This document shows positions 3,650 through 58,896 of a stretch of DNA of 64,000 nucleotides, in pieces. The position numbers and the translations under genes were made by a program. The stretch's first letter is position 1. Each line of letters starts with the position of its first letter. The stretch is taken from the IMG/VR virus record IMGVR_UViG_3300016478_000063, positions 24,800 to 88,799 of that record, one strand, 5' to 3'. The stretch is from a virus (taxonomy: Duplodnaviria; Caudoviricetes). A model generated the notes under the pieces. It saw nothing but the letters and a program-made list of their open reading frames with translations. It ran no database searches and had not been told where the DNA came from.

Positions 3650-5834
3650 CGGAGATTGGATTTGGGATGAAGAGGTGTATCCAAACGTCTATACTTGTGC
3701 AGTAGTTCATTCAAGTGGTCAGAACTTCCAAGTTTTTGAAATAAGTGACAGAAAGAATGATGTGCAAGAGCTTCTTGAATTTATGCGAGACATTAAGCGA
3801 AAAAATCATAGGCTTGTAGGTTTCAACTCGGTAAACTTTGACTATCCTGTACTTCATTATATTTTGAATAAATCAAAAGAATCGAAAAAGTCAAAAATCC
3901 ATTTAAAAATTTCAGCAAAGGAAATCTATGATGTTGGTATGAATCTTATTAAATCTCAGGATGACGAAGAGTCTAAGTCTAGGGCAATTAAGGAGTCAGA
4001 GGTTATAATTCCGCAACTTGATCTTTTTCTTGTACATCATTTTAACAATCGTGCAAGAGCAACATCTTTGAAGATGCTTGAGTTCAACATGAGGTCTGAT
4101 CAAATTGAAGACCTACCTTTCCCTGTTGGGAAACACCTGACCTCTGATGAAATTGATGTTTTGATTAAATACAACAAACATGATGTTCTGGAAACTTTAA
4201 AATTTTACAATGAATCAAGAGAAGCTATTGAGCTGCGTAACGAGCTTACTAAGCAGTTCGGTTTCGATTGCACAAACTATAATGATACCAAGATTGGCAA
4301 GCAACTTTTCATTGATCGTTTGGAGAAGGAGAACCCAGGATGCTGCTACAGTTACGGTAAATTTGGACGTAAAATCAATCAGACAAAGCGCGATAAAATC
4401 GTAATCAAGGACTGTTTGTTTGACTACATTGATTTCTCTAAGAATCGTCCAGAATTTCAAGCTGTACACCAATGGTTCAAACGTCAAATCATCACTGAAA
4501 CAAAAGGTGTGTTTACTGATCTTCTTGAACACAATCTTGGTGATGTTGCAAAATATGCTGAGATGAAAGTTAAGAAGATCAAGTTCAAAGCTGAACCGAG
4601 CCAACAGGAAATTGATGAAGTAAAGAAAGAGTTTCCTATGGGTTGGGTTGAGGTTACAGAACTAAAAGCAATGGAGGTTGTCAAAGACTCAGAAGGTAAA
4701 CCGATCAAAGAAGCCTATATTGACGAAAACGGTAAACAGAAACAGCGCAATGTGAAAGTTCCAAAGAAATCCTATCATTGGTGCTACAATATCGCTGAAA
4801 CTCTAAACGTAGTTATCAACGGTTTTCGATATGATTTTGGTGTTGGTGGTATTCATGGTGCTAAACAAGGGACTCACAAGTCTACAGAGAAACGTAAGCT
4901 ACGAACATTGGATGTTGCCAGCTACTATCCGAACATGGCAATCAGCAACAATGTTTATCCGAAGCACCTTGGGATGACATTTTGCAAAGTGTACAAGGAT
5001 TTGTACGTTGAACGTAAGAAACACGATAAAAAGTCAGCAGCAAACAAGGCTCTGAAGCTAGCTCTCAATGGGGTGTATGGCGATAGCAATAACGAGTTTA
5101 GTCCACTGTATGATCCAGCATATACCATGAGCATTACGATTGGTGGGCAGCTTTCACTTTGTATGCTGATGGGTGCTCTTGTGGATCACTGTGATGCTGA
5201 AATCATTATGTGTAACACTGATGGCTTTGAATATTTTGTTGATGTTGACAAGATTGAAAAAGCTGATAAGATTGTCAAACGATGGGAACAAGTGACTGGT
5301 CTTGAGATGGAAGGAGACACTTACTCTGTTATGTATGTTAGGGACGTAAATAATTACACTAGCATTACAGAATCAGGGAAGGTAAAGACCAAAGGTGCTT
5401 ATGAAGTGCTGCCTTACCGTGAGCTTGGATGGCATAAGAACCACTCAGCAATGGTTATTGCAATGGCTGTGCAAAAGGAGTTGCTTGGTGAATGTTCGGC
5501 AGAAGAGTTCATTCGTTCCCACAAAGATGCCTATGATTTTGTACTCAGAACAAAAGTACCTCGATCATCCAAGCTTTATCTGTGTTACGATGATGGACGT
5601 GAGGAACAGCAACAGAACATCTGTCGCTATTATCCAGCTTCAGAAGGTGGTAAGCTTGTTAAGCTAATGCCTCCACTTGAGGGTAGTGATGAATGGCGTA
5701 GACTTGGAATTGATACGGAGTGGGATGTTCTCACATGCAACAATATGAAGGATTTCAACTGGTCAAAGCTAAACTACGACTATTACATCACAGAAGCTCA
5801 GAAACTGATTGAAGGGGTGAAGAATGTATCATGA
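3630..5834 (+). CDS. DNA polymerase, family B, with 3'-5' exonuclease domain
   Basis: ExoI WDEEVY; motif A LDVASYYPN; motif B KLALNGVYG; motif C CNTDG; start ATG 3630 after GAGGAG. Confidence 0.88.
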   Translation: MGKNWSDGDWIWDEEVYPNVYTCAVVHSSGQNFQVFEISDRKNDVQELLEFMRDIKRKNHRLVGFNSVNFDYPVLHYILNKSKESKKSKIHLKISAKEIYDVGMNLIKSQDDEESKSRAIKESEVIIPQLDLFLVHHFNNRARATSLKMLEFNMRSDQIEDLPFPVGKHLTSDEIDVLIKYNKHDVLETLKFYNESREAIELRNELTKQFGFDCTNYNDTKIGKQLFIDRLEKENPGCCYSYGKFGRKINQTKRDKIVIKDCLFDYIDFSKNRPEFQAVHQWFKRQIITETKGVFTDLLEHNLGDVAKYAEMKVKKIKFKAEPSQQEIDEVKKEFPMGWVEVTELKAMEVVKDSEGKPIKEAYIDENGKQKQRNVKVPKKSYHWCYNIAETLNVVINGFRYDFGVGGIHGAKQGTHKSTEKRKLRTLDVASYYPNMAISNNVYPKHLGMTFCKVYKDLYVERKKHDKKSAANKALKLALNGVYGDSNNEFSPLYDPAYTMSITIGGQLSLCMLMGALVDHCDAEIIMCNTDGFEYFVDVDKIEKADKIVKRWEQVTGLEMEGDTYSVMYVRDVNNYTSITESGKVKTKGAYEVLPYRELGWHKNHSAMVIAMAVQKELLGECSAEEFIRSHKDAYDFVLRTKVPRSSKLYLCYDDGREEQQQNICRYYPASEGGKLVKLMPPLEGSDEWRRLGIDTEWDVLTCNNMKDFNWSKLNYDYYITEAQKLIEGVKNVS

Positions 5835-39162: not shown

Positions 39163-39456
39163 CTATCCTTTATTGTTTGCACTCTTTTGTGCTTGTTTGG
39201 ATTGTTGAGCCTTTTGTGCTTCTTCTTTCATCGTTTCTTGAGCATCCATAATCTCAATGAAATCATAAAAATCATCTATAGAATACAAGTGCTCAAGTTC
39301 ATGTTTGGTGCAAAGTCTAGGCTCATATGTCAAAAGACGCATCACTTGGAAGTCTTGACTAAACTCATCAGTGAGCCTTTGCATTTCCTCTGTTCTCACT
39401 ACCGCTGAAGCAGATTTACTCTTGCTTACTCTTCGGTAGCGTTTTCTTCCAAAGGG
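39163..39456 (-). CDS. tail assembly chaperone frameshift extension (gpT-like)
   Basis: The -1 frame is open from the slippery site through the 78 aa ORF; fusion about 199 aa. Confidence 0.75.
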   Translation of the reverse strand, partial: PFGRKRYRRVSKSKSASAVVRTEEMQRLTDEFSQDFQVMRLLTYEPRLCTKHELEHLYSIDDFYDFIEIMDAQETMKEEAQKAQQSKQAQKSANNKG

Positions 39457-39761
39457 TCGGCAAAATTGTACTCCAAGATCATAGCAAGTAGTTGGAAAAT
39501 TTCAGTATACTTACCTGCAAAGTGGTTATCAAAAGTCTTTTGATCAAATGCCATACTCCCTTTTGAGCAACCAAGAGAAATAATCTTGAATACTTGATCT
39601 GGATTCAGTGCCATCACGTTAATACCATCTTCCGTAAACAGACCGGCATCATGAATGTCTTTTTGAACACTTAAACCAGCAAGAGCACGAAACTTCTTCA
39701 GATTGTAAATCTCACCACCAACTTCTACTTCCTTGGTTTGGAAGGAATTTAGATTACCCAT
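39426..39761 (-). CDS. tail assembly chaperone (gpG-like)
   Basis: Lies between tube genes and tape measure; 111 aa. Confidence 0.75.
   Translation of the reverse strand: MGNLNSFQTKEVEVGGEIYNLKKFRALAGLSVQKDIHDAGLFTEDGINVMALNPDQVFKIISLGCSKGSMAFDQKTFDNHFAGKYTEIFQLLAMILEYNFADPLEENATEE
39450..39456 (-). other. -1 ribosomal frameshift slippery site C CCT TTG
   Basis: X XXY YYZ heptamer in the correct phase (GAC CCT TTG). Confidence 0.75.
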
Positions 39762-42446: not shown

Positions 42447-44818
42447 TCACACACGGGCTACGCCACGGATGATGACTTTACGAACCGAGCCTGCAAGCCG
42501 GAACGCGATAAGGAAGTCACCCATCAGCCGTTGAGCACGTTGAACTTCTGGAATTGCCAGAGGATCAGGAGCTACTACCGTATATGGAGTGTCGTCAGCA
42601 ATACCACCATTAGCCACGCCTTGACTCATGACAGTGCGAATGTCATTTTCAATAATTGTGGCCCCGGTGCGCGTGAATGGGATTTTTTTCACATTAACCA
42701 TGCGGAAAAACACAGATTCTTCCAAACGAGTGATCAGCCACAGGATGAATACTGATTCCGTTTATGTTCACACAAGATCGTTACTCTTGTACTGCTTTAG
42801 GTTTCGTTGTCCACCCATTTTTATTTCCTTTGCACCAGCTCTCAACAATGTAAGGCTCTACATTACCGTAATACTTTGCTGCAAAGATAGGGCTTTCAAA
42901 CTCTAAACCTTCTGGAGATATGAATATACTTTTACTTCTTGAAGAGGTCATGTGCAGGAACTCTTCATTTCTTTCTGCATTTATAATCAAAGAGTCACTA
43001 AACTCTCTTGAAACCTGTTTCTTCTTTTCTGCGCTCGCTTGCACTGCTTTAAGCATCTGAGCATACCCTTTCTCAGTGGCTCTGTATTCAATCATTTGAG
43101 CGCGTTTAATTTCCTTCCATTCCTCAGAACGTTTTTGACCTGTCCACGCTTCTCTTGCAAGTTTTGCATACTCTTTGATAAGACCAGAGGAAACTTTATA
43201 ATCGTTTAGCTCTTTAAGTTTCCTTTGCCGCTCTGGTGTGTTAGCAAGCAACCTTATCCTTTCTAATAAACCAGACTCAACATTAGCTAAACCTCTAGCT
43301 ACCTTCTGATCCACTGTTTGTCCACGCATCATTACCCAAGCCATATAGTCAGACGCCCTTTTATACGCCTTCCACAACAACCTGTGTGCAAAAACATGCT
43401 GTCTGTAATCTAACCTTATAAGGTTTTCTTTTGAATCATCGCCTCCTGCATGGCGAGGAATGATGTGGTGGACTTCTGTATAAGTTCCTTCATCAAACAC
43501 TTGATTCTTGTATTTTTCTATAAATGCAAAATAAAGTTTTTCGTAATTCATTGTATCTCCAAGCTACTTACGCTTTCACGTAAGACCAGACTATATCTTC
43601 ACCTTTCTTTTCAAGTTAAGGTGCTCCCCATTTCGCCTCACTTGAGGCTACGGCATCACTGCCTAGTCGTTGAACCTTCCCCTCATCAGGGCTTGGCTGC
43701 TGATTGCCACATAATATGTTGTTTTCAAACATTCACGCTTAACTATATCTCAAGTTTACGTTGTAGTCAACATATCTTCGCGGGTTTCCAGCAATTAAAG
43801 GAGTTATTCAAAAGTCATTTCTGACTTAGGCGACTTGTTTCAAATCGATAGGAGCACCACTAACCATGTTACCATCTTGGAAAACTTCAACACCAGCTTT
43901 ACGGGTATAGAAGTTGCAGTTTTTACTACGCAGGTTAGTTTTCTGAGTCTCGGTTAGACGATCAACAGTAATACCAGTTGCAGTTTTTAGGTTCCAATCA
44001 TTAGAACCCGGAACTTCTGGGAGTTGGCTACCAATCCACGCACATTCAGGGTACTGAGTGGCTGCATTCTTACTGTAGATAAGGAATGTCTGGTCATAGT
44101 TAAGATCACTAAGAGCCGTGGCTACGTCAGTGATTTGAGTGGTAGGAACATCTGCATCAGCAGTTGCGGCACCATAAATCTTACGGCGAGCTTGAATGGC
44201 AGCAGCAATCTCAAGAATGTCAGCTTTAACGCGAGTCTCGGTAGTCAAAGCAAACCACTGATCATTTACATCTTCAACAGCATCAATCGTGTCTGTCCAA
44301 GTCTCTGTAGGTGCCGCATCTTGCTTAACAAGGTTAGAAGATACTCGTACTGACCAATCGCTACCCGGAGTAGCAGGAGCAATAGTAAGACTGCCGGTGT
44401 TGTCTGTTACGTTAATACCTGCAACAGTACCAATAGTCAGATCAAGACCAGTTGCAATTTCATCTGCTGTAGCATTGGCATCTGAAGTGTAGCTATAGTC
44501 CACTTCATTGATGGTTACAACATAGGTTGCATTATTAGCCACTGTTGGTGTGATAGTGACGCTATCAACTTGGCGACGGCCTACTACAACAGAAGCAGGT
44601 TTTAGTTCTTGACCAAATAAGGTCTGAACCATTTTATATACAACATCTGAACTATCGAAATCTTCTGCAATACCTGTAATACTTGTGTATACACGAGCAC
44701 GCTCAGGGAAGTTTGTAAACGCAGCCATTACACATGGAATGTCAAAGCTGGCTGTATCAATAGCAGACGTTTGTTTGTCGATAAATACCTCGACAACATC
44801 TGACAAGTTATTTGCCAT
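42447..44818 (-). CDS. tail sheath protein, two exons: 44818-43844 and 42758-42447 (428 aa spliced)
   Basis: Joining gives GAPID|ESVFILWLITRLEESVF, the conserved sheath ID..W motif, then KIPFTRTG; exons of 975 and 312 nt are in frame. Confidence 0.9.
42781..43551 (-). CDS. intron-encoded HNH homing endonuclease (MobE-like N-terminus)
   Basis: EVHHIIPRHAGGDDSKENLIRL..RQHVFAHRLLWKAY. Confidence 0.85.
   Translation of the reverse strand: MNYEKLYFAFIEKYKNQVFDEGTYTEVHHIIPRHAGGDDSKENLIRLDYRQHVFAHRLLWKAYKRASDYMAWVMMRGQTVDQKVARGLANVESGLLERIRLLANTPERQRKLKELNDYKVSSGLIKEYAKLAREAWTGQKRSEEWKEIKRAQMIEYRATEKGYAQMLKAVQASAEKKKQVSREFSDSLIINAERNEEFLHMTSSRSKSIFISPEGLEFESPIFAAKYYGNVEPYIVESWCKGNKNGWTTKPKAVQE
43742..43770 (-). 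promoter_or_regulatory. promoter inside the P5 extension of the sheath intron
   Basis: TTGACT-17 bp-TATAGT. Confidence 0.65.
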
Positions 44819-53953: not shown

Positions 53954-55429
53954 CTATGCAAAGGGGTTATTTGTTTTTAGAATTGAATCTGATTGCTGGA
54001 GGCCAGTCATGAAGTTGGGGATTTGAACTCTACTTGCCAATGCCATGAAGGCGTCCGAGCAAACATCGACAAGATCGTCGTGACCATTTACACCAGACTT
54101 CCGCTCTCCGGTAAAACCTTCTAACTCGTTGTAGAAGAATTTAAGATCGTTATAAACCTTATTTTCGTAATCTGTACCACAGTTCTTTAAGGTGTTCATC
54201 CCACCATTCATGGTGAATGACGCGAACGGACGAAAACGGTCGATCTTTTTACCTGAAGCCTTCATTGTTCTAACAAAGAAACCTTCTTCTGAGATTTGAC
54301 GAGCCATCATCTGTGTTGCAGCTTTAGCGGCTGGGTTTGGGTCAATAGGTAAAATAATGTCTACCTTGTTACCGTCCCTTCTCGCATTCTCAAGAACAAA
54401 ATCTGCCCATTGACCAAATCTAATTCGGATTCGCTGAACATCATGAATAAAATATTCCCCATTCTTTAGCTTTGATAGCTTGACACAAGTTGTATAATCG
54501 GGGTCATACGTCATATCTTGAGTTTTAATTGTTCCAGCAAAGTCATAAGCCCTAACTGTTTTTACAATATCTGTCCAAGCAGGCTCTTCATCACACTCTC
54601 TAAACCACTCACGCTTAATTAGCCCCTCACCCTCTGGGCGAGCGTCCCAGTTGCCCCATAAAAGTAACTCTTTTTGAATGCGAGGCAAACCTTCAAGAAA
54701 CGCAATATAGCTTGGTTCAATATATGGATTGTCGTAGACGGATGCCGAGATGAACCTGAAAGACAGTGGAGTAGATTTAGGAAACTGTTCAAGAATTTCT
54801 TCTTTACTATTTGCCCAATGTAACTCGTTATCTATACGAACAAACCAACGAATTGCTCCTTGTTTAGAAGGATCAGGTCTGCCATGTAATTCATGGTCAG
54901 GCGGATAAAGATACCAGTCTACATATTTCCTAACCCAACTATTGGCATCAGGGTTCATTGTGGCACGCATGTTCGGCTTCATCTTCGCTTTTGTACGAAG
55001 ACGCGAAAGAATATAGTCAAATTGAGGTTCTTCAAATTGACACAACTCCTCCATTACACAACTGGAAATTTGTGCGCCTTGAAAGTTGTCCGTATCGTCA
55101 ACTCTTTCAAAGTGGGAGAACTGTACTTCACCCCCACTGCTTGCCACGATTTTTAAATCTTTAATTTTAATCCTGCAATTTGGATCAAATTCTTTATAGA
55201 GTTGCTTTGCTTCGTCCCAAACTGCACCGGGCTTTAGTAGCATCGGGGTAGTTCTACGAAGTGTCAACCCCCGGTAAAGGGGGTCGTTGATATATTTAAG
55301 ATGGTGGGCAAGGCCCGCCCAAGTTTTTCCGCCGCCCGCCTGACCCCCGTAGAAACAAATATCTACCCAGTCAGGGGTAGTCAAAAACATTTCTTGGGGC
55401 TTACTGGCAGGTTGGATTACAGCTACCAT
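53954..55429 (-). CDS. terL: terminase large subunit
   Basis: YGGQAGGGKT Walker A; MEELCQF Walker B; RAYDFAG and HDDLVD nuclease motifs; start ATG 55429 coupled to the upstream stop (TAATG). Confidence 0.92.
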   Translation of the reverse strand: MVAVIQPASKPQEMFLTTPDWVDICFYGGQAGGGKTWAGLAHHLKYINDPLYRGLTLRRTTPMLLKPGAVWDEAKQLYKEFDPNCRIKIKDLKIVASSGGEVQFSHFERVDDTDNFQGAQISSCVMEELCQFEEPQFDYILSRLRTKAKMKPNMRATMNPDANSWVRKYVDWYLYPPDHELHGRPDPSKQGAIRWFVRIDNELHWANSKEEILEQFPKSTPLSFRFISASVYDNPYIEPSYIAFLEGLPRIQKELLLWGNWDARPEGEGLIKREWFRECDEEPAWTDIVKTVRAYDFAGTIKTQDMTYDPDYTTCVKLSKLKNGEYFIHDVQRIRIRFGQWADFVLENARRDGNKVDIILPIDPNPAAKAATQMMARQISEEGFFVRTMKASGKKIDRFRPFASFTMNGGMNTLKNCGTDYENKVYNDLKFFYNELEGFTGERKSGVNGHDDLVDVCSDAFMALASRVQIPNFMTGLQQSDSILKTNNPFA

Positions 55430-56451
55430 TAAACCTCCTTCGTGATTTTGTACTCTTCTTCCCAAGAATCGCGTTGAGCTGCTGCTTGTTCAAAAGTTTT
55501 AAACTGCTTAGTAAGATATTTACCGTTCACGTCCATCCGAGCAACATATATCTGCCTACGTTTATCGTATTTCACTCCCACCTTCCCACAAATCCCTTTA
55601 GGTTCTCTTGGAAATTTATACATTGTTTTAGAGGCTTCTACTTTAGTAACCCACATACAATTATCTTTACTGAAATCCCCAAGAGGGTTTAGTCTAATTA
55701 GTTGTAAGTTATCAGGCTTCTCACCCATATCTTCAACAAAATTATCAACTCCATCCTCTCCTAACCACCTTTCGCAAACCTCAATACCGTATTTAACGAA
55801 GTTGTGATTAGATTTGTGGGACTCACTATAACAGCGGTAAAGCATGTTACGGTAGGCTTCGTAAGTTTTTCGGGAGTAGCTCCATTTTCTGTTGGCTTTT
55901 GAAGTCTGATCTTTGTGAAAACAACCACAAGACTTGGTGTCACCTGATTGCAATGCGCCTACCATCACTGATGTTTCGTTACCACAATCACAAACACAGT
56001 CCCATCTGGCTTTTCTTTGACCATTAGGGAAGTGATGCCATGAGTACGTGTCTTTGACTACAAGTCTACCAAATCTCTTACCAGATAGATCAATATGTCT
56101 TGTTTCACCATAACCGGCACCCTCTGTACGAAGTGAGCGTTGGAAAGAATACTCTTCTTTAATCTTTGCAAGAACTTTTGTCGGTAAGAATTTACCATAC
56201 TCTCTTGTATTGGCCATCATGTGAGCGGCGTTTGTTAAACCAAGATGCTTTGGATACGCTTTCCAAAGCAATATATGTGCAATGATATGCTCTCGTGCGG
56301 TAAACATCACAAGATTATCATCTTCATCACTGCCGCCTAAACAGCGTGGAACAATATGATGCTTCTCAAAGTAACCTTCAAGAATAGATTTATCCAAGCC
56401 TCTAACTTTACACTTTTCTACTAATCGGTCATAAACCTTTTTATAATCCAT
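55429..56451 (-). CDS. composite HNH homing endonuclease (intact N-terminal HNH, degenerate second HNH, AP2)
   Basis: EKHHIVPRCLGGSDEDDNLV; DLSGKRFGRL..CDCG..KSCGC..LIRLNPLGDFSKDNCMW; GKVGVKYDKRR. Confidence 0.8.
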   Translation of the reverse strand: MDYKKVYDRLVEKCKVRGLDKSILEGYFEKHHIVPRCLGGSDEDDNLVMFTAREHIIAHILLWKAYPKHLGLTNAAHMMANTREYGKFLPTKVLAKIKEEYSFQRSLRTEGAGYGETRHIDLSGKRFGRLVVKDTYSWHHFPNGQRKARWDCVCDCGNETSVMVGALQSGDTKSCGCFHKDQTSKANRKWSYSRKTYEAYRNMLYRCYSESHKSNHNFVKYGIEVCERWLGEDGVDNFVEDMGEKPDNLQLIRLNPLGDFSKDNCMWVTKVEASKTMYKFPREPKGICGKVGVKYDKRRQIYVARMDVNGKYLTKQFKTFEQAAAQRDSWEEEYKITKEV

Positions 56452-56454
56452 TTT

Positions 56455-56475
56455 CACTCCTAAATAAAAGGAGTG
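56455..56475 (-). promoter_or_regulatory. SD-sequestering hairpin of the HNH gene
   Basis: CACTCCT-TTTATTT-AGGAGTG perfect 7-bp stem burying AGGAG, 3 nt before ATG. Confidence 0.75.
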
Positions 56476-56756
56476 CCCCAACCTGCGTAGCCGTCAAGAC
56501 AACTCTATAGCAGGAATTACGGGTTCACAAAACTAAATTAAACAGAGCGTCATCACGACGAGTCTAATTCTTTTCAGACTTAACGTCTATTCTTCCCAAA
56601 AGAAAGCTCCACGCTTTCTCTCATTCAATAAAAACAGTATATCAAAAATTCATTAGCTGAAGCAAGCTTTTTGAAAATAAATATGAAATAATCTTAAGCG
56701 ATGATCCTCACAAAGAAGATCATCTATAAAACTACTTACTATATTTACGAAGGATT

Positions 56757-57217
56757 GTCTGTAGCAAGAATAGTAAAGCCATATTGAATTTTACCGTGTT
56801 AATTCTAATCCGGCTGAAATAGTGCTGAAGGCCACAGCTACCTGCCAATCAGCGTGAGAAACCAAAAATGTTTCCCCTCTCCCCAAACACGCAATCTTCG
56901 TTGCGTTTAAAACGATCCAGACACCATTTACAAGCAGACTTGCTTTGCTACCGACATTTCAGCTCTAATAGCTTGGTGTGGGCTGGGCTACGCTCCATCT
57001 CATCTGGTTAGTCGTAGCGATCATATCAAGCACTAACGTAGCTTTCACGAAATGATGCTTCAAGGTAGCGATCACACCTTCTTCATTCACTAGGCAAAAT
57101 GTTTGAAGATACGGGCTTTCGCCCGAGCTGGGTTTTATCCCAGCCCCAAGCCGTAGGCTTGATTTGGGATAGTGCATTGCACTATATTCTTTTGTCCACA
57201 ATCCACAGACCGTGGAC
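56757..57217 (-). ncRNA. candidate large structured non-coding RNA
   Basis: No credible ORF; many perfect hairpins including a GAAA tetraloop, plus two long-range helices. Confidence 0.55.
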
Positions 57218-57246
57218 AGTTATTCTTTATTTATCAGTGAACATTA

Positions 57247-57882
57247 TCAGCTAATATCTTTGAAAGGGTTGATTTCAAGTGTCCATCCCTTCCAATAATC
57301 ATACTCATCAGATTCAACAACATTGTTGTGTTCAAGGCGAATCTTGTTACCAATCTGAACCACCAAACCTCTGTCAGAATCTTTATATCGTTTAACAATG
57401 TACAATTGGTAACGTGGGAGCCAACCATCTTTAGGAGTGGCTTTCAGTAGTTGCCAACCAGCATTATCAAAATCATCTCGTACATAATCTTGTCCAGCCA
57501 GCTTTGTGATCGTGTATTTACGTACATCACAACCAAGGACAAATCTCTTAAAGTTGTTGAATGGATTGCGAACCGCCATCCACCAAAACCTATTTAAAGG
57601 CTTTCTGCTATCTGCACCAAAACTGTTTGCATCCCACCAACCACGATGATCGCCAGTAGATGAATCTTCAAGGTTATCCCAAGGCCAGAATACTTTAGGA
57701 AACACCTCTCTAATCCATTTACGATTGGTATTGTACATTGTGAAGTGTTTGGCGGATTCAGGATCATATTTTCCAAGTAGGAGCATGATAGGGACTACCA
57801 AGAATCCTAACAAAATACCGCATACTTGAAGGACAAAGAACAAGATAGTAGTTACTGCGAATACAACAACTTCTTTAAACAC
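57247..57882 (-). CDS. membrane-anchored Trp-rich phage protein
   Basis: N-terminal TM; FWPWDN...WMAVRNP.NN pattern. Confidence 0.6.
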   Translation of the reverse strand: MFKEVVVFAVTTILFFVLQVCGILLGFLVVPIMLLLGKYDPESAKHFTMYNTNRKWIREVFPKVFWPWDNLEDSSTGDHRGWWDANSFGADSRKPLNRFWWMAVRNPFNNFKRFVLGCDVRKYTITKLAGQDYVRDDFDNAGWQLLKATPKDGWLPRYQLYIVKRYKDSDRGLVVQIGNKIRLEHNNVVESDEYDYWKGWTLEINPFKDIS

Positions 57883-58292
57883 TATTCTTTATCCTTCTTA
57901 ACAGCATCGTTGACGAACAGAGAGAACACAGCACCATTCGGTTGTTTTTCCTGCTCTTCTTTCTCAGCTTCTTCTGCTTCAATAGCGTCACCCTTCCAAC
58001 GAAGACCGTTCATCTCTGCTTCGTCAACAGCGGCAGCCTTGGTAAAGCTGATAAGGTTGTTCAGCACCCATTTTGCAGTCTGGAGTGATTCCCGGTCTAC
58101 GGCTTCCTCTTTTACTGACTTCTCAACCAGAGCCAGTGAATGAGGCTCAAGTTCTTGCAACTTAACCAAAGTCTTACGCAGGGCTGATTTTTTAATACGC
58201 TTTTTACGCTGATTTTGATTATCGGCTGCCAAAGTATTACCTTTCTCAAACCTGTGCGTCGGATTCGGATTACCCTTGGGCATAATTTTCAT
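57882..58292 (-). CDS. terS: terminase small subunit (putative)
   Basis: RFEKGN N-terminal motif, helical body, upstream of terL. Confidence 0.55.
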   Translation of the reverse strand: MKIMPKGNPNPTHRFEKGNTLAADNQNQRKKRIKKSALRKTLVKLQELEPHSLALVEKSVKEEAVDRESLQTAKWVLNNLISFTKAAAVDEAEMNGLRWKGDAIEAEEAEKEEQEKQPNGAVFSLFVNDAVKKDKE

Positions 58293-58896
58293 ACCTCTTA
58301 ATTATAGCTTCTGAAATACATCTATCAGATTCTAGGCGTGCAAACTCATAAGCCAGTTCCAATTTTCTTGAAAGCCAAGCTTCATGTGCTGATAGTGGAT
58401 CACGAAAATTCCCCAAGAACTCCCTCTTTCCACTAAAAGGGTTGGAAATCTTAGCATCAAACATGTTCTTTTTATTATGGAAGCTAACACCTATTGGCCA
58501 CTCTCCCCTTAGCGCAGACCTCTCTGTCATAAAAGAGTTTAACTTTTTACTGATAAACACGCATGTTTCTGGGGAGTAATGTTTGTTGCCTCTGAGTAAC
58601 AAATCTTTATCTAAGTACTTACCTTGCCAATCTTGTTGTTCCATCCAAGCTTTGAAGTTACTAAAAGTTAGCCACTCTTCGCAGACAGTGCAATCTTTAT
58701 AGGATGGTTTAGTTTTATGGTACTTGTCAGAATAGCATCTTTCAAGCATGCTTGCCCACTTATTATAGAATGGACATACAGCATTTTTCTTATTTGTTAC
58801 AACCTCAGATAAATGTGATTCACCATGAACATGGTAGTCTGCATCATTTATACCAACACCATAAACTAATTTAGTTTTCTTATAGACCTTCTTCAT
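58270..58896 (-). CDS. free-standing HNH homing endonuclease (family A)
   Basis: YGVGINDADY...CPFYNKWASMLERCY...YLDKDLLLRGNKHYSPETCVF. Confidence 0.83.
   Translation of the reverse strand: MKKVYKKTKLVYGVGINDADYHVHGESHLSEVVTNKKNAVCPFYNKWASMLERCYSDKYHKTKPSYKDCTVCEEWLTFSNFKAWMEQQDWQGKYLDKDLLLRGNKHYSPETCVFISKKLNSFMTERSALRGEWPIGVSFHNKKNMFDAKISNPFSGKREFLGNFRDPLSAHEAWLSRKLELAYEFARLESDRCISEAIIKRYENYAQG

What the first reader, a model, noticed from the sequence alone, without database searches (positions are those of the whole stretch)
56757..57217. Candidate ~460-nt multi-domain structured RNA inside the packaging operon
Seen on the minus strand, in a 790-bp gap with no credible ORF: GTCCAC/GTGGAC, ATAGTGCA-A-TGCACTAT (57185-57169), AAGCC/GGCTT, GCTGGG/CCCAGC and CGGGC-GAAA-GCCCG (57125-57112). 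TGATCGCTAC occurs twice (57074, 57023). A 13-bp long-range helix (57151-57139 with 56987-56971) competes with local hairpins. A second domain is closed by GTCGGTAGCAA/TTGCTACAGAC (56955-56945 with 56767-56757) and contains further hairpins. It lacks the group I core, group II domain V and tRNA/tmRNA ends. Known: large phage ncRNAs (GOLLD, ROOL) and phi29 pRNA exist. Inference: a possibly new large ncRNA or ribozyme positioned between terS and terL.
Basis: partly seen in the sequence, partly recalled or inferred. Interest (0 to 1): 0.78.

Follow-up and report, generated by a model that had tools for sequence, protein, structure and literature searches.

The report
New modular structured RNA in phage
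The ORF-free gap holds a real folded non-coding RNA of about 377 bases, from an undescribed family that FelixO1-like water phages keep at their tRNA locus; this copy carries an extra, highly conserved hairpin that elsewhere sits beside a toxin-like RNA-cutting enzyme, so it may be an RNA decoy.

Summary

It is a structured RNA, not decayed coding sequence. I found about 30 homologues in 84-93 kb FelixO1-like phage contigs and in the cultured Pseudomonas phage vB_PsaM_M1. They share six helices (P1-P6) joined by invariant linkers. 32 of 39 base pairs show compensatory changes. G-U outnumbers A-C 91 to 29, which points to RNA of the gene-sense strand. Rfam 15 has no match.

The window copy (about 57193-56817, minus strand) is an expanded member with grafted modules. 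One module, 'X' (56999-56936), is a near-invariant hairpin of about 50 nt. X also occurs as stand-alone sRNA genes and inside phage tRNA arrays. In 17 of 39 loci X lies 23-122 nt from a ~150-aa MuF-C/PBECR protein with a RelE/colicin-D-like fold.

Function is inferred: a trans-acting, tRNA-locus stable RNA scaffold whose X module may act as a decoy for BECR RNases. I found no expression data.

The parts
56817..57193 (-). Whole structured RNA: an expanded member of the new family modelled by R1 (canonical members are about 167 nt)
   Evidence: The 5' leader AAAAGAAU and the 3' tail CACUAUUU are both family-conserved. The 3' half is matched by model R1 at 22.9 bits, E 8e-5, the only hit in the window. 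The modules are shared with L044, L105 and L075.
57194..57217 (-). Ten-pair hairpin (two G-U pairs) between the DUF7338 stop codon and the RNA leader; not assigned to the RNA
   Evidence: No counterpart was seen in homologues, so it is not known whether it belongs to the RNA.
57169..57185 (-). Insert hairpin i1 inside the conserved 5' leader (between AAAGAAU and AUCAAG)
   Evidence: Canonical members read AAAGAAUCAG without a break. L105 also has an insert at this point.
57147..57161 (-). P1, the family's first hairpin (CAAGCC-UAC-GGCUUG)
   Evidence: Aligns with P1 of L010, L044 and L018. P1 is 98.8% paired across 24 homologues.
57112..57144 (-). Two insert hairpins (GCUGGG/CCCAGC and CGGGC-GAAA-GCCCG) that split the invariant linker UGG|UAUC
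   Evidence: They are absent from canonical members, where UGGUAUC is unbroken.
57080..57109 (-). P2, an extended hairpin whose loop carries the family-invariant GCCUAG (57095-57090)
57052..57075 (-). 'Y' hairpin (GUGAUCGCU...AGCAUCAU) in the place of P3; it contains the first TGATCGCTAC. The second copy lies at 57023-57014.
   Evidence: Nearly the same hairpin is inserted in L075. The family's P3 loop UCUGGCGG is missing from this copy.
56914..57018 (-). Extended X module: stem GCUACG/CGUAGC (57018-57013 with 56992-56987), the X core, an inner hairpin, and ...GUAAAUGGUGUCUGGAUC
   Evidence: About 90% identical to L044 and L105. The flanking stems differ but keep pairing (GCUACG/CGUAGC against GGAGUG/CACUCC).
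56936..56999 (-). X core, with invariant ...CACACCAAGC-loop-GCUGAAAUGUC...
   Evidence: Model R2 gives 45.3 bits, E 1e-11. R2 was built from 15 stand-alone X hairpins. In those, the outer stem covaries in 8 of 8 pairs, and pair 19-48 is UA 9, CG 5, GC 1.
56889..56906 (-). Hairpin after X (ACGCAA...UUGCGU)
   Evidence: L044 and L105 have hairpins of different sequence at the same position.
56856..56884 (-). Invariant GGGGAGAG motif followed by P5 (GGGAAAC-AUUUUUG-GUUUCUC)
   Evidence: High-confidence part of the R1 alignment. P5 covaries: L010 has GGGAGUA/UACUCUC, L023 has GAUACUC/GAGUAUC, L026 has GAAUAGA/UCUAUUC.
56817..56852 (-). P6 (CUGAUUGGC-AGGUAGCUGUG-GCCUUCAG) and the 3' tail CACUAUUU
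   Evidence: In P6, 8 of 9 pairs show changes on both sides.
56738..56767 (-). Promoter-like site TTGCTA-18-TATAGT downstream of the RNA; not part of it
   Evidence: The 47-nt block 56784-56738 is 87% identical to L007:1183-1229 of phage M1.
55429..56531 (-). Free-standing HNH homing-endonuclease gene (coding 56451-55429) with its 77-nt 5' UTR; a mobile unit inserted just upstream of terL
   Evidence: phrog_374 and phrog_655 hits. The UTR is 94.8% identical to the one at the same position in phage vB_PsaM_M1.
57247..57882 (-).
   Evidence: PF24027 at 1.3e-15 and phrog_2143. Its homologue in phage M1 lies in the lysis region and is annotated 'lysozyme'.
57882..58292 (-). 136-aa gene; its homologues end 2-10 nt before the RNA in canonical loci
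   Evidence: 36% identity, E 3e-13, to L026:9529-9939. Stop codons directly precede AAAGAAUCAG in L029, L053, L050, L056, L062 and L075.

Best explanation
SHOWN. The gap encodes, on the minus strand, a structured non-coding RNA of about 377 nt (57193-56817). It belongs to a family absent from Rfam 15. Canonical members are about 167 nt and have six hairpins (P1-P6). The hairpins are joined by invariant single-stranded or loop motifs: UGGUAUC, GCCUAG, UCUGGCGG, UAAAUG, GUGGAGAR, AGGYAG...GUGG and CUAUUU. There is one copy per genome in the four relatives' records searched whole (three complete 88-91 kb IMG/VR genomes and the 89 kb genome of the cultured Pseudomonas phage vB_PsaM_M1); the other members lie on 84-93 kb FelixO1-like contigs. 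The family occupies the 'stable RNA' locus. It lies directly after the stop codon of a conserved 136-aa gene or abutting a tRNA, and upstream of the promoter of the structural genes. The window copy keeps P1, P2, P5, P6 and both ends. It carries grafts at five points, and the region around P3 and P4 is a graft hot spot across the family. One graft is the X hairpin.

INFERRED.
(1) The RNA is made by read-through from the upstream operon, since no promoter precedes it. It is then trimmed by the nucleases that process tRNAs and mRNA, and it accumulates as a compact, stable, trans-acting RNA.
(2) The conserved core is a scaffold, and the grafted hairpins are the working parts.
(3) X is the cognate RNA ligand of solo MuF-C/PBECR proteins, which are RelE/colicin-D-fold RNases. 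In prophages and satellites X would keep that RNase in check, as an RNA antitoxin or substrate mimic. Phages that carry X without the enzyme, like this one, would use it as a decoy against such RNases met in the host. This parallels phage-borne pseudo-ToxI.

My odds: a real, conserved, strand-specific structured RNA family member, about 0.9. Trans-acting stable RNA rather than a cis element, about 0.6. X as decoy or antitoxin for a BECR RNase, about 0.25.
For: Structure and family:
- Fold z is -4.35.
- Homologues were found through shared motifs.
- Model R1 finds 32 loci and none of the chance pattern matches.
- On 24 sequences, 87.7% of cells pair against 61% in shuffles. 245 cells have changes on both sides against 78 in shuffles. 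32 of 39 pairs show compensatory change. The covariation score is 0.63 against at most 0.19 when the partners are slid.
- G-U 91 against A-C 29 favours RNA of this strand.
- There is no Rfam hit for the window copy at E<=10. Fourteen relatives scanned whole at gathering thresholds gave only tRNA and group I intron hits, none on the element.

Window copy:
- R1 hits the 3' half.
- The modules are shared with L044, L105 and L075, and the flanking stems covary.

Niche:
- tRNA-Thr abuts the 5' end in L023, L058 and L063.
- tRNA-Trp abuts the 3' end in L044 and L105.
- tRNA-Met replaces the 3' half in L011, L028, L033 and L035.
- tRNA-Pro abuts the 3' end in phage M1.
- Neighbouring genes vary on both sides, which argues against control of one particular gene.

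X:
- R2 gives 45.3 bits in the window, with covariation in the seed.
- X occurs as promoter-plus-terminator sRNA genes and inside tRNA arrays.
- A MuF_C gene lies 23-122 nt from X in 17 of 39 distinct loci, in three orientations.
- Iyer et al. 2017 (PMC5512222) class MuF-C as a PBECR predicted RNase or RNA-binding domain.
- The model of the protein (pLDDT 88.6) best matches BrnT (Z 6.7), CdiA-CT tRNase (6.2), colicin D tRNase (5.5) and RelE (5.5).
- The window's own genome has no MuF_C match.
Against: - There is no expression data of any kind.
- The window copy lacks the family's invariant UCUGGCGG loop, and its only tRNA gene is about 60 kb away. It could therefore be a decaying or repurposed copy.
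- In L029 and L053 the RNA sits about 40 nt before the next gene, with no promoter between. That would also fit a cis role.
- The link between X and the enzyme rests on gene neighbourhood only. 22 of 39 X loci have no MuF_C gene nearby.
- The structural matches are moderate (Z 5-7), in the range the tool warns may mean only a common fold.
- PADLOC has no model for the protein.
- Covariation was counted on an alignment fitted to the model, which leans towards the structure.
Confidence: 0.5

Rival explanations
1. Self-assembling 'ornate' RNA. Like GOLLD and ROOL, the RNA forms a homo-oligomeric particle. In this reading the invariant loops (for example the palindromic CUAG in the P2 loop) make contacts between molecules, and the grafts or tRNAs are cargo on display.
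For: It shares the genomic niche of GOLLD and ROOL: phage-borne, often near tRNA islands, with tRNAs sometimes inside the RNA (PMC12286853). It has many invariant loop nucleotides with no partner in the secondary structure. The graft sites are variable.
Against: At about 167 nt the canonical form is much smaller than ROOL (about 580 nt) or GOLLD (about 800 nt). No covariation or other test of intermolecular pairs was possible. A 4-nt palindrome is weak evidence.
Confidence: 0.15
2. Cis-acting element of the polycistronic transcript. This would be a 3'-end protector for the upstream 136-aa/DUF7338 message, a processing site, or an attenuator or antiterminator that gates read-through into the structural operon.
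For: The RNA starts 2-10 nt after an upstream stop codon in many loci and has no promoter of its own. In L029 and L053 the next gene starts about 40 nt after it.
Against: The flanking genes differ widely. Upstream are a 136-aa gene, DUF7338, a 430-aa tail-fibre-like gene or a tRNA. Downstream are a HEG, a phrog_4770 gene, a 125-aa gene, a tRNA or a promoter. No terminator or anti-terminator alternative is conserved. A promoter-like site follows the RNA in the window and in many relatives.
Confidence: 0.15
3. Packaging RNA or ribozyme. This would be a phi29-pRNA-like component of the packaging motor, or a self-cleaving or self-splicing RNA placed beside terL.
For: In this window the RNA is near terL. 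X-type hairpins with invariant cores and variable stems resemble the build of small self-cleaving ribozymes, and they occur next to tRNAs as some ribozymes do.
Against: There is no Rfam ribozyme, intron or pRNA hit at E<=10. In relatives 2.5-4.5 kb of genes separate the RNA from terL. The closeness here results from gene loss and a HEG insertion. terL is intact and is not split.
Confidence: 0.05
4. Not a functional RNA: chance hairpins, a decayed gene, or a DNA-level site such as pac or an origin.
For: The plus strand also folds better than shuffles (z -3.42). The gap lies in a recombination hot spot with HEGs.
Against: Compensatory changes occur in 32 of 39 pairs across 24 homologues. G-U exceeds A-C threefold on this strand. 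tblastx and tblastn found no coding remnant. The motifs are conserved across phages whose TerL is only 38-88% identical.
Confidence: 0.03

Closest known systems
GOLLD (RF01998) and ROOL (RF03087) large phage RNAs
   Same: They are phage or prophage-borne and highly structured, with many tetraloops. They are often at tRNA islands, sometimes with tRNAs embedded. They have a conserved part and a variable part, and their function is unknown (PMC12286853).
   Different: There is no covariance-model match even at E<=10. The canonical size here is about 167 nt against 580-800 nt. The helices and invariant motifs differ. Oligomerisation was not tested.
Phage T4 rnaC and rnaD (species 1 and 2 small stable RNAs)
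   Same: These are small stable RNAs of unknown function encoded at the end of a phage tRNA cluster, next to a homing-endonuclease gene (T4 annotation). That they are co-processed with tRNAs is from my own knowledge.
   Different: Model R1 finds nothing in the T4 tRNA-rnaC-rnaD region at E<=10. The two are not homologous by this test.
ToxI and phage pseudo-ToxI (type III toxin-antitoxin RNA; Blower et al. 2012, from my own knowledge)
   Same: This is the proposed logic for the X module: a small structured RNA encoded beside an endoribonuclease toxin gene, with orphan copies carried by phages as decoys.
   Different: ToxI is a tandem array of 36-nt repeats that the toxin itself processes, and ToxN is not BECR-fold. 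X is a single hairpin with its own promoter and terminator, often convergent with the gene. Neither binding nor neutralisation has been shown.
phi29 pRNA (RF00044)
   Same: It is a phage-encoded structured RNA, and it was invoked because the window RNA lies near terL.
   Different: There is no Rfam match. The closeness to terL is specific to this genome. No portal-binding feature was identified.

Membership tests
New family modelled by R1 (FelixO1-like phage tRNA-locus RNA) | P1 hairpin followed by the invariant linker UGGUAUC | tested here: met
   P1 lies at 57161-57147. UGG (57148-57146) and UAUC (57111-57108) are present but split by two inserted hairpins.
New family modelled by R1 (FelixO1-like phage tRNA-locus RNA) | P2 hairpin with a GCCUAG loop | tested here: met
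   GCCUAG lies at 57095-57090 in the loop of an extended hairpin.
New family modelled by R1 (FelixO1-like phage tRNA-locus RNA) | P3 hairpin with a UCUGGCGG loop | tested here: not met
   The gap has no CUGGCGG. A different hairpin ('Y', loop ACCUUGA) stands in its place. The other expanded members, L044 and L105, keep P3.
New family modelled by R1 (FelixO1-like phage tRNA-locus RNA) | GUGGAGAR, then P5, P6 (loop AGGYAG...GUGG) and the CUAUUU tail, scored by the covariance model | tested here: met
   R1 gives 22.9 bits, E 8e-5, the only hit in 64 kb. The 3' half aligns with high posterior probability, while the 5' half is mis-aligned because of the inserts.
X hairpin (model R2) | Invariant core CACACCAAGC-loop-GCUGAAAUGUC with the covarying pair 19-48 inside an enclosing stem | tested here: met
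   R2 gives 45.3 bits, E 1e-11, at 56999-56936. The enclosing stem is replaced by the extended arrangement shared with L044 and L105.
GOLLD / ROOL | Match to the Rfam covariance models | tested here: not met
   cmscan of 56300-57400 at E<=10 lists only two chance snoRNA hits. At gathering thresholds, 14 relatives gave only tRNA and group I intron hits.
Group I intron | Match to RF00028 and interruption of a host gene | tested here: not met
   There is no hit in the gap, although the same scan finds a group I intron at 43567-43853. terL is complete when compared with L001 TerL.
Y RNA / YrlA (RF02553) | Match to the Rfam model | tested here: not met
   There is no hit at E<=10 in the window region, nor at E<=0.1 in six X loci. 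No search for a Ro60 gene was made.
Type III toxin-antitoxin RNA (ToxI-like) | Tandem repeats upstream of the toxin gene, cut by the toxin | tested here: not met
   X is a single copy, lies downstream of or convergent with the MuF_C gene, and has its own promoter and terminator. Cutting by the protein cannot be tested with these tools.
BECR-fold RNase (for the X-linked ~150-aa protein) | Pfam MuF_C above its threshold and a RelE/colicin-D-like fold | tested here: met
   PF18819 scores 32-50 bits against a cut-off of 27.6 in all eight full-length members tested; the truncated L089 ORF sits at the cut-off (27.6). The top structural matches are BrnT, CdiA-CT, colicin D, RelE, YafQ and YoeB at Z 5.0-6.7. 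Catalysis was not tested.

The most novel reading that the evidence does not exclude
The X hairpin and the solo MuF-C/PBECR protein form an undescribed two-part system. A RelE/colicin-D-fold RNase would be controlled by, or aimed at, a dedicated near-invariant small RNA. That would be the first RNA partner known for a BECR-fold toxin. Phages would graft orphan X copies into tRNA arrays, and into a scaffold RNA such as this one, as decoys. The scaffold family itself would then be a new class of 'display' RNA for counter-defence modules at phage tRNA loci.
Probability: 0.2. Interest if true: 0.85.

Novelty: new variant of a known kind. Interest (0 to 1): 0.7.

Why it matters
Phage tRNA islands hold several large structured RNAs (GOLLD, ROOL, T4 rnaC and rnaD) whose functions are still unknown decades after discovery. 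This family adds three things.

- It has a compact six-helix core whose secondary structure is well supported by covariation.
- It shows visible modularity. Hairpins, whole tRNAs and the X motif are grafted at fixed points, which suggests a scaffold that displays working parts.
- One of those parts gives a concrete, testable lead. X is tightly linked to a predicted tRNase/RelE-like toxin gene in prophages and satellites.

A cultured host-phage pair carries an unannotated member (Pseudomonas sp. ZM01 and vB_PsaM_M1). Cultured Aeromonas phages carry stand-alone X genes. The question can therefore be taken to the bench directly.

Tried and rejected
- Split terL or intron idea. The TerL profile match starts at position 148 of phrog_979, which suggested a missing exon in the gap. 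This was rejected: the window TerL aligns from its first residues with the 468-aa TerL of L001.
- Decayed-gene idea. tblastx of the gap against relatives, and tblastn of 18 neighbouring ORFs of relatives against the window, found nothing in the gap.
- blastn against 50,697 phage records. This found only the HEG 5' UTR and, later, the 31-nt X core in Aeromonas phages. A canonical member found nothing.
- First pattern scans. A stem-based pattern from the window-specific hairpins found nothing. The first metagenome pattern for the extended X found nothing.
- The genome search with R1 on the window's own genome reported nothing, although cmsearch on the window finds the 3' half. I take this to be a filter effect.
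- FelixO1 itself, T4 rnaC/rnaD and Aeromonas phage 62AhydR11PP have no R1 match.
- X is absent from four complete relatives.
- PADLOC has no hit for the MuF-C protein. Foldseek alone gave only weak rows.
- I considered that X mimics the 16S rRNA decoding site, because it shares UCACACCA and GUCGU with helix 44 as I recall it. I dropped this: the covarying pair 19-48 and the ACA/UGU helix put the strands in a different register from helix 44, and I did not check the rRNA sequence with a tool.
- Earlier notes of this scan gave no look-alike by sequence.

Full report
CONTEXT. The window is the last 64 kb of an 88,799-bp IMG/VR virus record that CheckV rates complete. Read on the minus strand, the gene order is as follows:
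- an HNH fragment (58896-58270);
- a 136-aa gene (58292-57882);
- a DUF7338 gene (57882-57247);
- a 795-nt gap;
- an HNH homing-endonuclease gene (56451-55429);
- terL (55429-53954);
- the portal gene (53945-52461).

The nearest named relative is Pseudomonas phage vB_PsaM_M1 (Ounavirinae, 89 kb). It has the same endonuclease, with a 95%-identical 5' UTR, at the same place in front of terL. TerL is complete. So the gap is neither an exon nor an intron, and the gene upstream of it is not a recognisable terS.

OBSERVATION. The 461-nt stretch folds 4.35 standard deviations better than dinucleotide shuffles on the minus strand, and 3.42 on the plus strand. Rfam 15 gives nothing here even at E<=10. 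The same library does find a group I intron at 43567-43853.

HOMOLOGUES AND FAMILY. Relatives found through DUF7338 lack the gap sequence. Relatives found through TerL gave short non-coding matches. These showed a shared two-hairpin block whose first stem differs in sequence but always pairs. A motif pattern then retrieved 52 loci. About 30 are true homologues, mostly from 84-93 kb contigs.

The canonical RNA is about 167 nt:
- leader AAAGAAU;
- P1, with a tetraloop;
- linker UGGUAUC;
- P2, loop GCCUAG;
- linker ACCC;
- P3, loop UUCUGGCGGA;
- linker UAAAUGAC;
- P4, loop GAAAGA;
- linker GUGGAGAR;
- P5;
- linker AGAG or CACG;
- P6, loop AGGYAG...GUGG;
- tail ACUAUUU.

A covariance model (R1) recovers 32 loci and none of the chance pattern matches. 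On 24 sequences aligned to it:
- 87.7% of cells pair, against 61% in shuffles;
- 245 cells carry changes on both sides, against 78 in shuffles;
- 32 of 39 pairs show compensatory change;
- sliding the partners drops the covariation score from 0.63 to at most 0.19.

G-U pairs outnumber A-C 91 to 29, so the structure belongs to RNA of the gene-sense strand. The caveat is that this alignment was fitted to the model. Three complete relatives and the whole record of the cultured phage vB_PsaM_M1 each have one copy. The M1 copy is unannotated, lies at 39356-39646, and abuts tRNA-Pro. Salmonella phage FelixO1 and the T4 rnaC/rnaD region give no match.

THE WINDOW COPY. R1 has a single hit in the window (22.9 bits, E 8e-5). 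Its 3' half (GGGGAGAG, P5, P6, CUAUUU; 56884-56817) aligns with high posterior probability. The 5' half is mis-placed because of large inserts.

Reading the sequence against L010, L044, L105 and L075 places the parts as follows:
- leader at 57193-57186;
- an inserted hairpin at 57185-57169;
- P1 at 57161-57147;
- two inserted hairpins at 57144-57112 that split UGG|UAUC;
- P2, with the GCCUAG loop, at 57109-57080;
- a 'Y' hairpin at 57075-57052 where P3 should be, shared with L075;
- an extended 'X' module of about 105 nt at 57018-56914, shared at about 90% identity with L044 and L105;
- a further hairpin at 56906-56889.

The stems flanking X differ between the three RNAs but keep pairing (GCUACG/CGUAGC against GGAGUG/CACUCC). 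So do the hairpin after X, P5 and P6. The copy lacks the UCUGGCGG loop.

That site is shared with an unrelated M1 intergenic region. It lies 50 nt beyond the conserved 3' end.

THE X MODULE. The X core matched intergenic DNA of Aeromonas phages at 93-97% over 31 nt. There it sits between a TTGACA-17-TAGGAT promoter-like site and an intrinsic terminator, which makes it an unannotated sRNA gene. Pattern scans found X in 9 viral contigs, 7 bacterial genomes or MAGs (Gallionella, Methylophaga, Thiodiazotropha, Idiomarina, Marinomonas) and 33 metagenome contigs.

The core, about 26 nt, is invariant. The enclosing stem covaries in 8 of 8 pairs. An inner pair is U-A in 9 sequences, C-G in 5 and G-C in 1. 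One C-C mismatch becomes A-U in phage 4_D05. Model R2 scores the window at 45.3 bits (E 1e-11). Among the FelixO1-like loci it otherwise hits only L044, and it is absent from four complete relatives. X is therefore a graft.

Rfam has no match. X occurs in three settings:
- inside tRNA arrays, four times directly after tRNA-Thr(UGU);
- as a stand-alone sRNA gene;
- grafted into the R1 RNA.

X AND A BECR RNase. Clustering the ORFs around X gave one recurrent neighbour, a protein of about 150 aa. It lies 23-122 nt from X in 17 of 39 distinct loci. It is found upstream, downstream or convergent. All eight full-length members tested pass Pfam MuF_C, and a truncated ninth sits at the cut-off.

Iyer et al. 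2017 class MuF-C within the phage BECR (Barnase-EndoU-ColicinE5/D-RelE) predicted RNase or RNA-binding domains (PMC5512222). A model built from 13 homologues (pLDDT 88.6) best matches BrnT (Z 6.7), a CdiA-CT tRNase (6.2), the colicin D tRNase domain (5.5) and RelE (5.5). These are followed by YafQ and YoeB. The Z values are moderate, but the list is uniform. Invariant K, D-H, R, T-x-E, R, N, S and Y residues fit an active site.

The window's own genome has no MuF_C match, though the tool warns that this empty answer proves little.

NICHE. In canonical loci the RNA starts 2-10 nt after the stop codon of a conserved 136-aa gene. The window homologue of that gene is at 58292-57882 (36% identity). 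In the window the DUF7338 gene has come between that gene and the RNA.

About a dozen members touch a same-strand tRNA:
- tRNA-Thr(UGU) abuts the 5' end in three;
- tRNA-Trp, tRNA-Asn or tRNA-Pro lies at the 3' end;
- tRNA-Met replaces the 3' half in four.

The window genome has a single tRNA, about 60 kb away. A D-arm-like remnant follows the RNA at 56816-56795. GOLLD and ROOL are described as phage RNAs 'often near tRNA islands', with tRNAs sometimes in the GOLLD linker (PMC12286853).

MECHANISM. Shown: this is a conserved, strand-specific, six-helix RNA with fixed graft points, and one graft is genetically linked elsewhere to a BECR-fold protein.

Inferred:
- It is made by read-through, since no promoter precedes it.
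- It is processed together with tRNAs and acts in trans. The genes on both sides vary too much for a dedicated cis role.
- X may bind BECR RNases as an antitoxin-like decoy.

The rivals are a self-assembling ornate RNA, a cis-acting processing or attenuation element, a pRNA or ribozyme, and no function. They are weighed in their own sections. No expression data could be obtained.

NOVELTY. This is not a member of any Rfam 15 family. In kind it resembles the enigmatic phage tRNA-island RNAs. Earlier notes of this scan list several other unclassified RNAs in phage tRNA arrays, and none matched by sequence. The X-MuF-C pairing is, to my knowledge, undescribed.

Noticed in passing
window 43567-43853 (-): A group I catalytic intron (RF00028, 99.3 bits, E 1.7e-24) lies elsewhere in the window. 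Its host gene was not examined.
   Followed up: no
L076:1436-1624 (MH179474.1 about 1739-1927); L077 likewise: Cultured Aeromonas phages 62AhydR11PP and 4_D05 carry an unannotated sRNA gene of about 155 nt: a TTGACA-17-TAGGAT promoter-like site, the X hairpin, then an intrinsic terminator.
   Followed up: partly
L086:4884-5336 with X at 5409; L090:599-1048 with X at 510; L087, L092, L094, L096, L103, L104, L111, L113, L120 (convergent): A solo ~150-aa MuF-C/PBECR (RelE/colicin-D-fold) gene lies 23-122 nt from the X sRNA in 17 of 39 loci, in prophage or satellite-like contexts (portal, Ogr/Delta, next to glmS). This may be an RNA-protein toxin module.
   Followed up: partly
OP714164.2:39356-39646 (L131:1057-1347): Cultured Pseudomonas phage vB_PsaM_M1 has an unannotated 291-nt member of the new RNA family (R1 34 bits). 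It ends exactly at the start of a tRNA-Pro-Asn-Thr cluster.
   Followed up: partly
window 55429-56531 (-); L007:3001-3977: The HNH homing-endonuclease gene and its 77-nt 5' UTR are shared at 85-95% identity with phage M1 at the same site just upstream of terL. Relatives carry different endonuclease genes (225-392 aa) at this spot, so it is a homing hot spot.
   Followed up: partly
window 56738-56784 (-); L007:1183-1229: A 47-nt block holding a TTGCTA-18-TATAGT promoter-like site is 87% identical to an intergenic block of phage M1. It may be a shared phage promoter.
   Followed up: no
window 56795-56816 (-): Directly after the RNA's 3' tail comes CAGCCGGAUUAGAA, which resembles the D-arm of the tRNA-Met that follows the RNA in L011 and L028. 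It may be the remnant of a lost tRNA gene.
   Followed up: no
L085, L098, L101, L115 (X); L023, L058, L063 (R1 RNA): tRNA-Thr(UGU) is the tRNA directly upstream of stand-alone X hairpins in four arrays and of the R1 RNA in three phages. This recurrent pairing is unexplained.
   Followed up: no
L017:3888-6377; L003:8787-9223: In L017 the terL reading frame is 829 aa, with the TerL match starting late. This may be a fusion or an intein. In L003 the TerL match starts at profile position 179, after a 435-nt gap behind an HNH gene, so the gene may be split.
   Followed up: no
window 58270-58896 (-): A 208-aa ORF matches only the C-terminal half of HNH endonuclease phrog_953 (positions 194-388 of 420). 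It looks like a truncated homing-endonuclease gene.
   Followed up: no
L083:884-951 (-): In one phage contig the X hairpin is followed directly by a ROSE_3 RNA thermometer (RF02523, 43.4 bits) and a small heat-shock-protein-like ORF.
   Followed up: no
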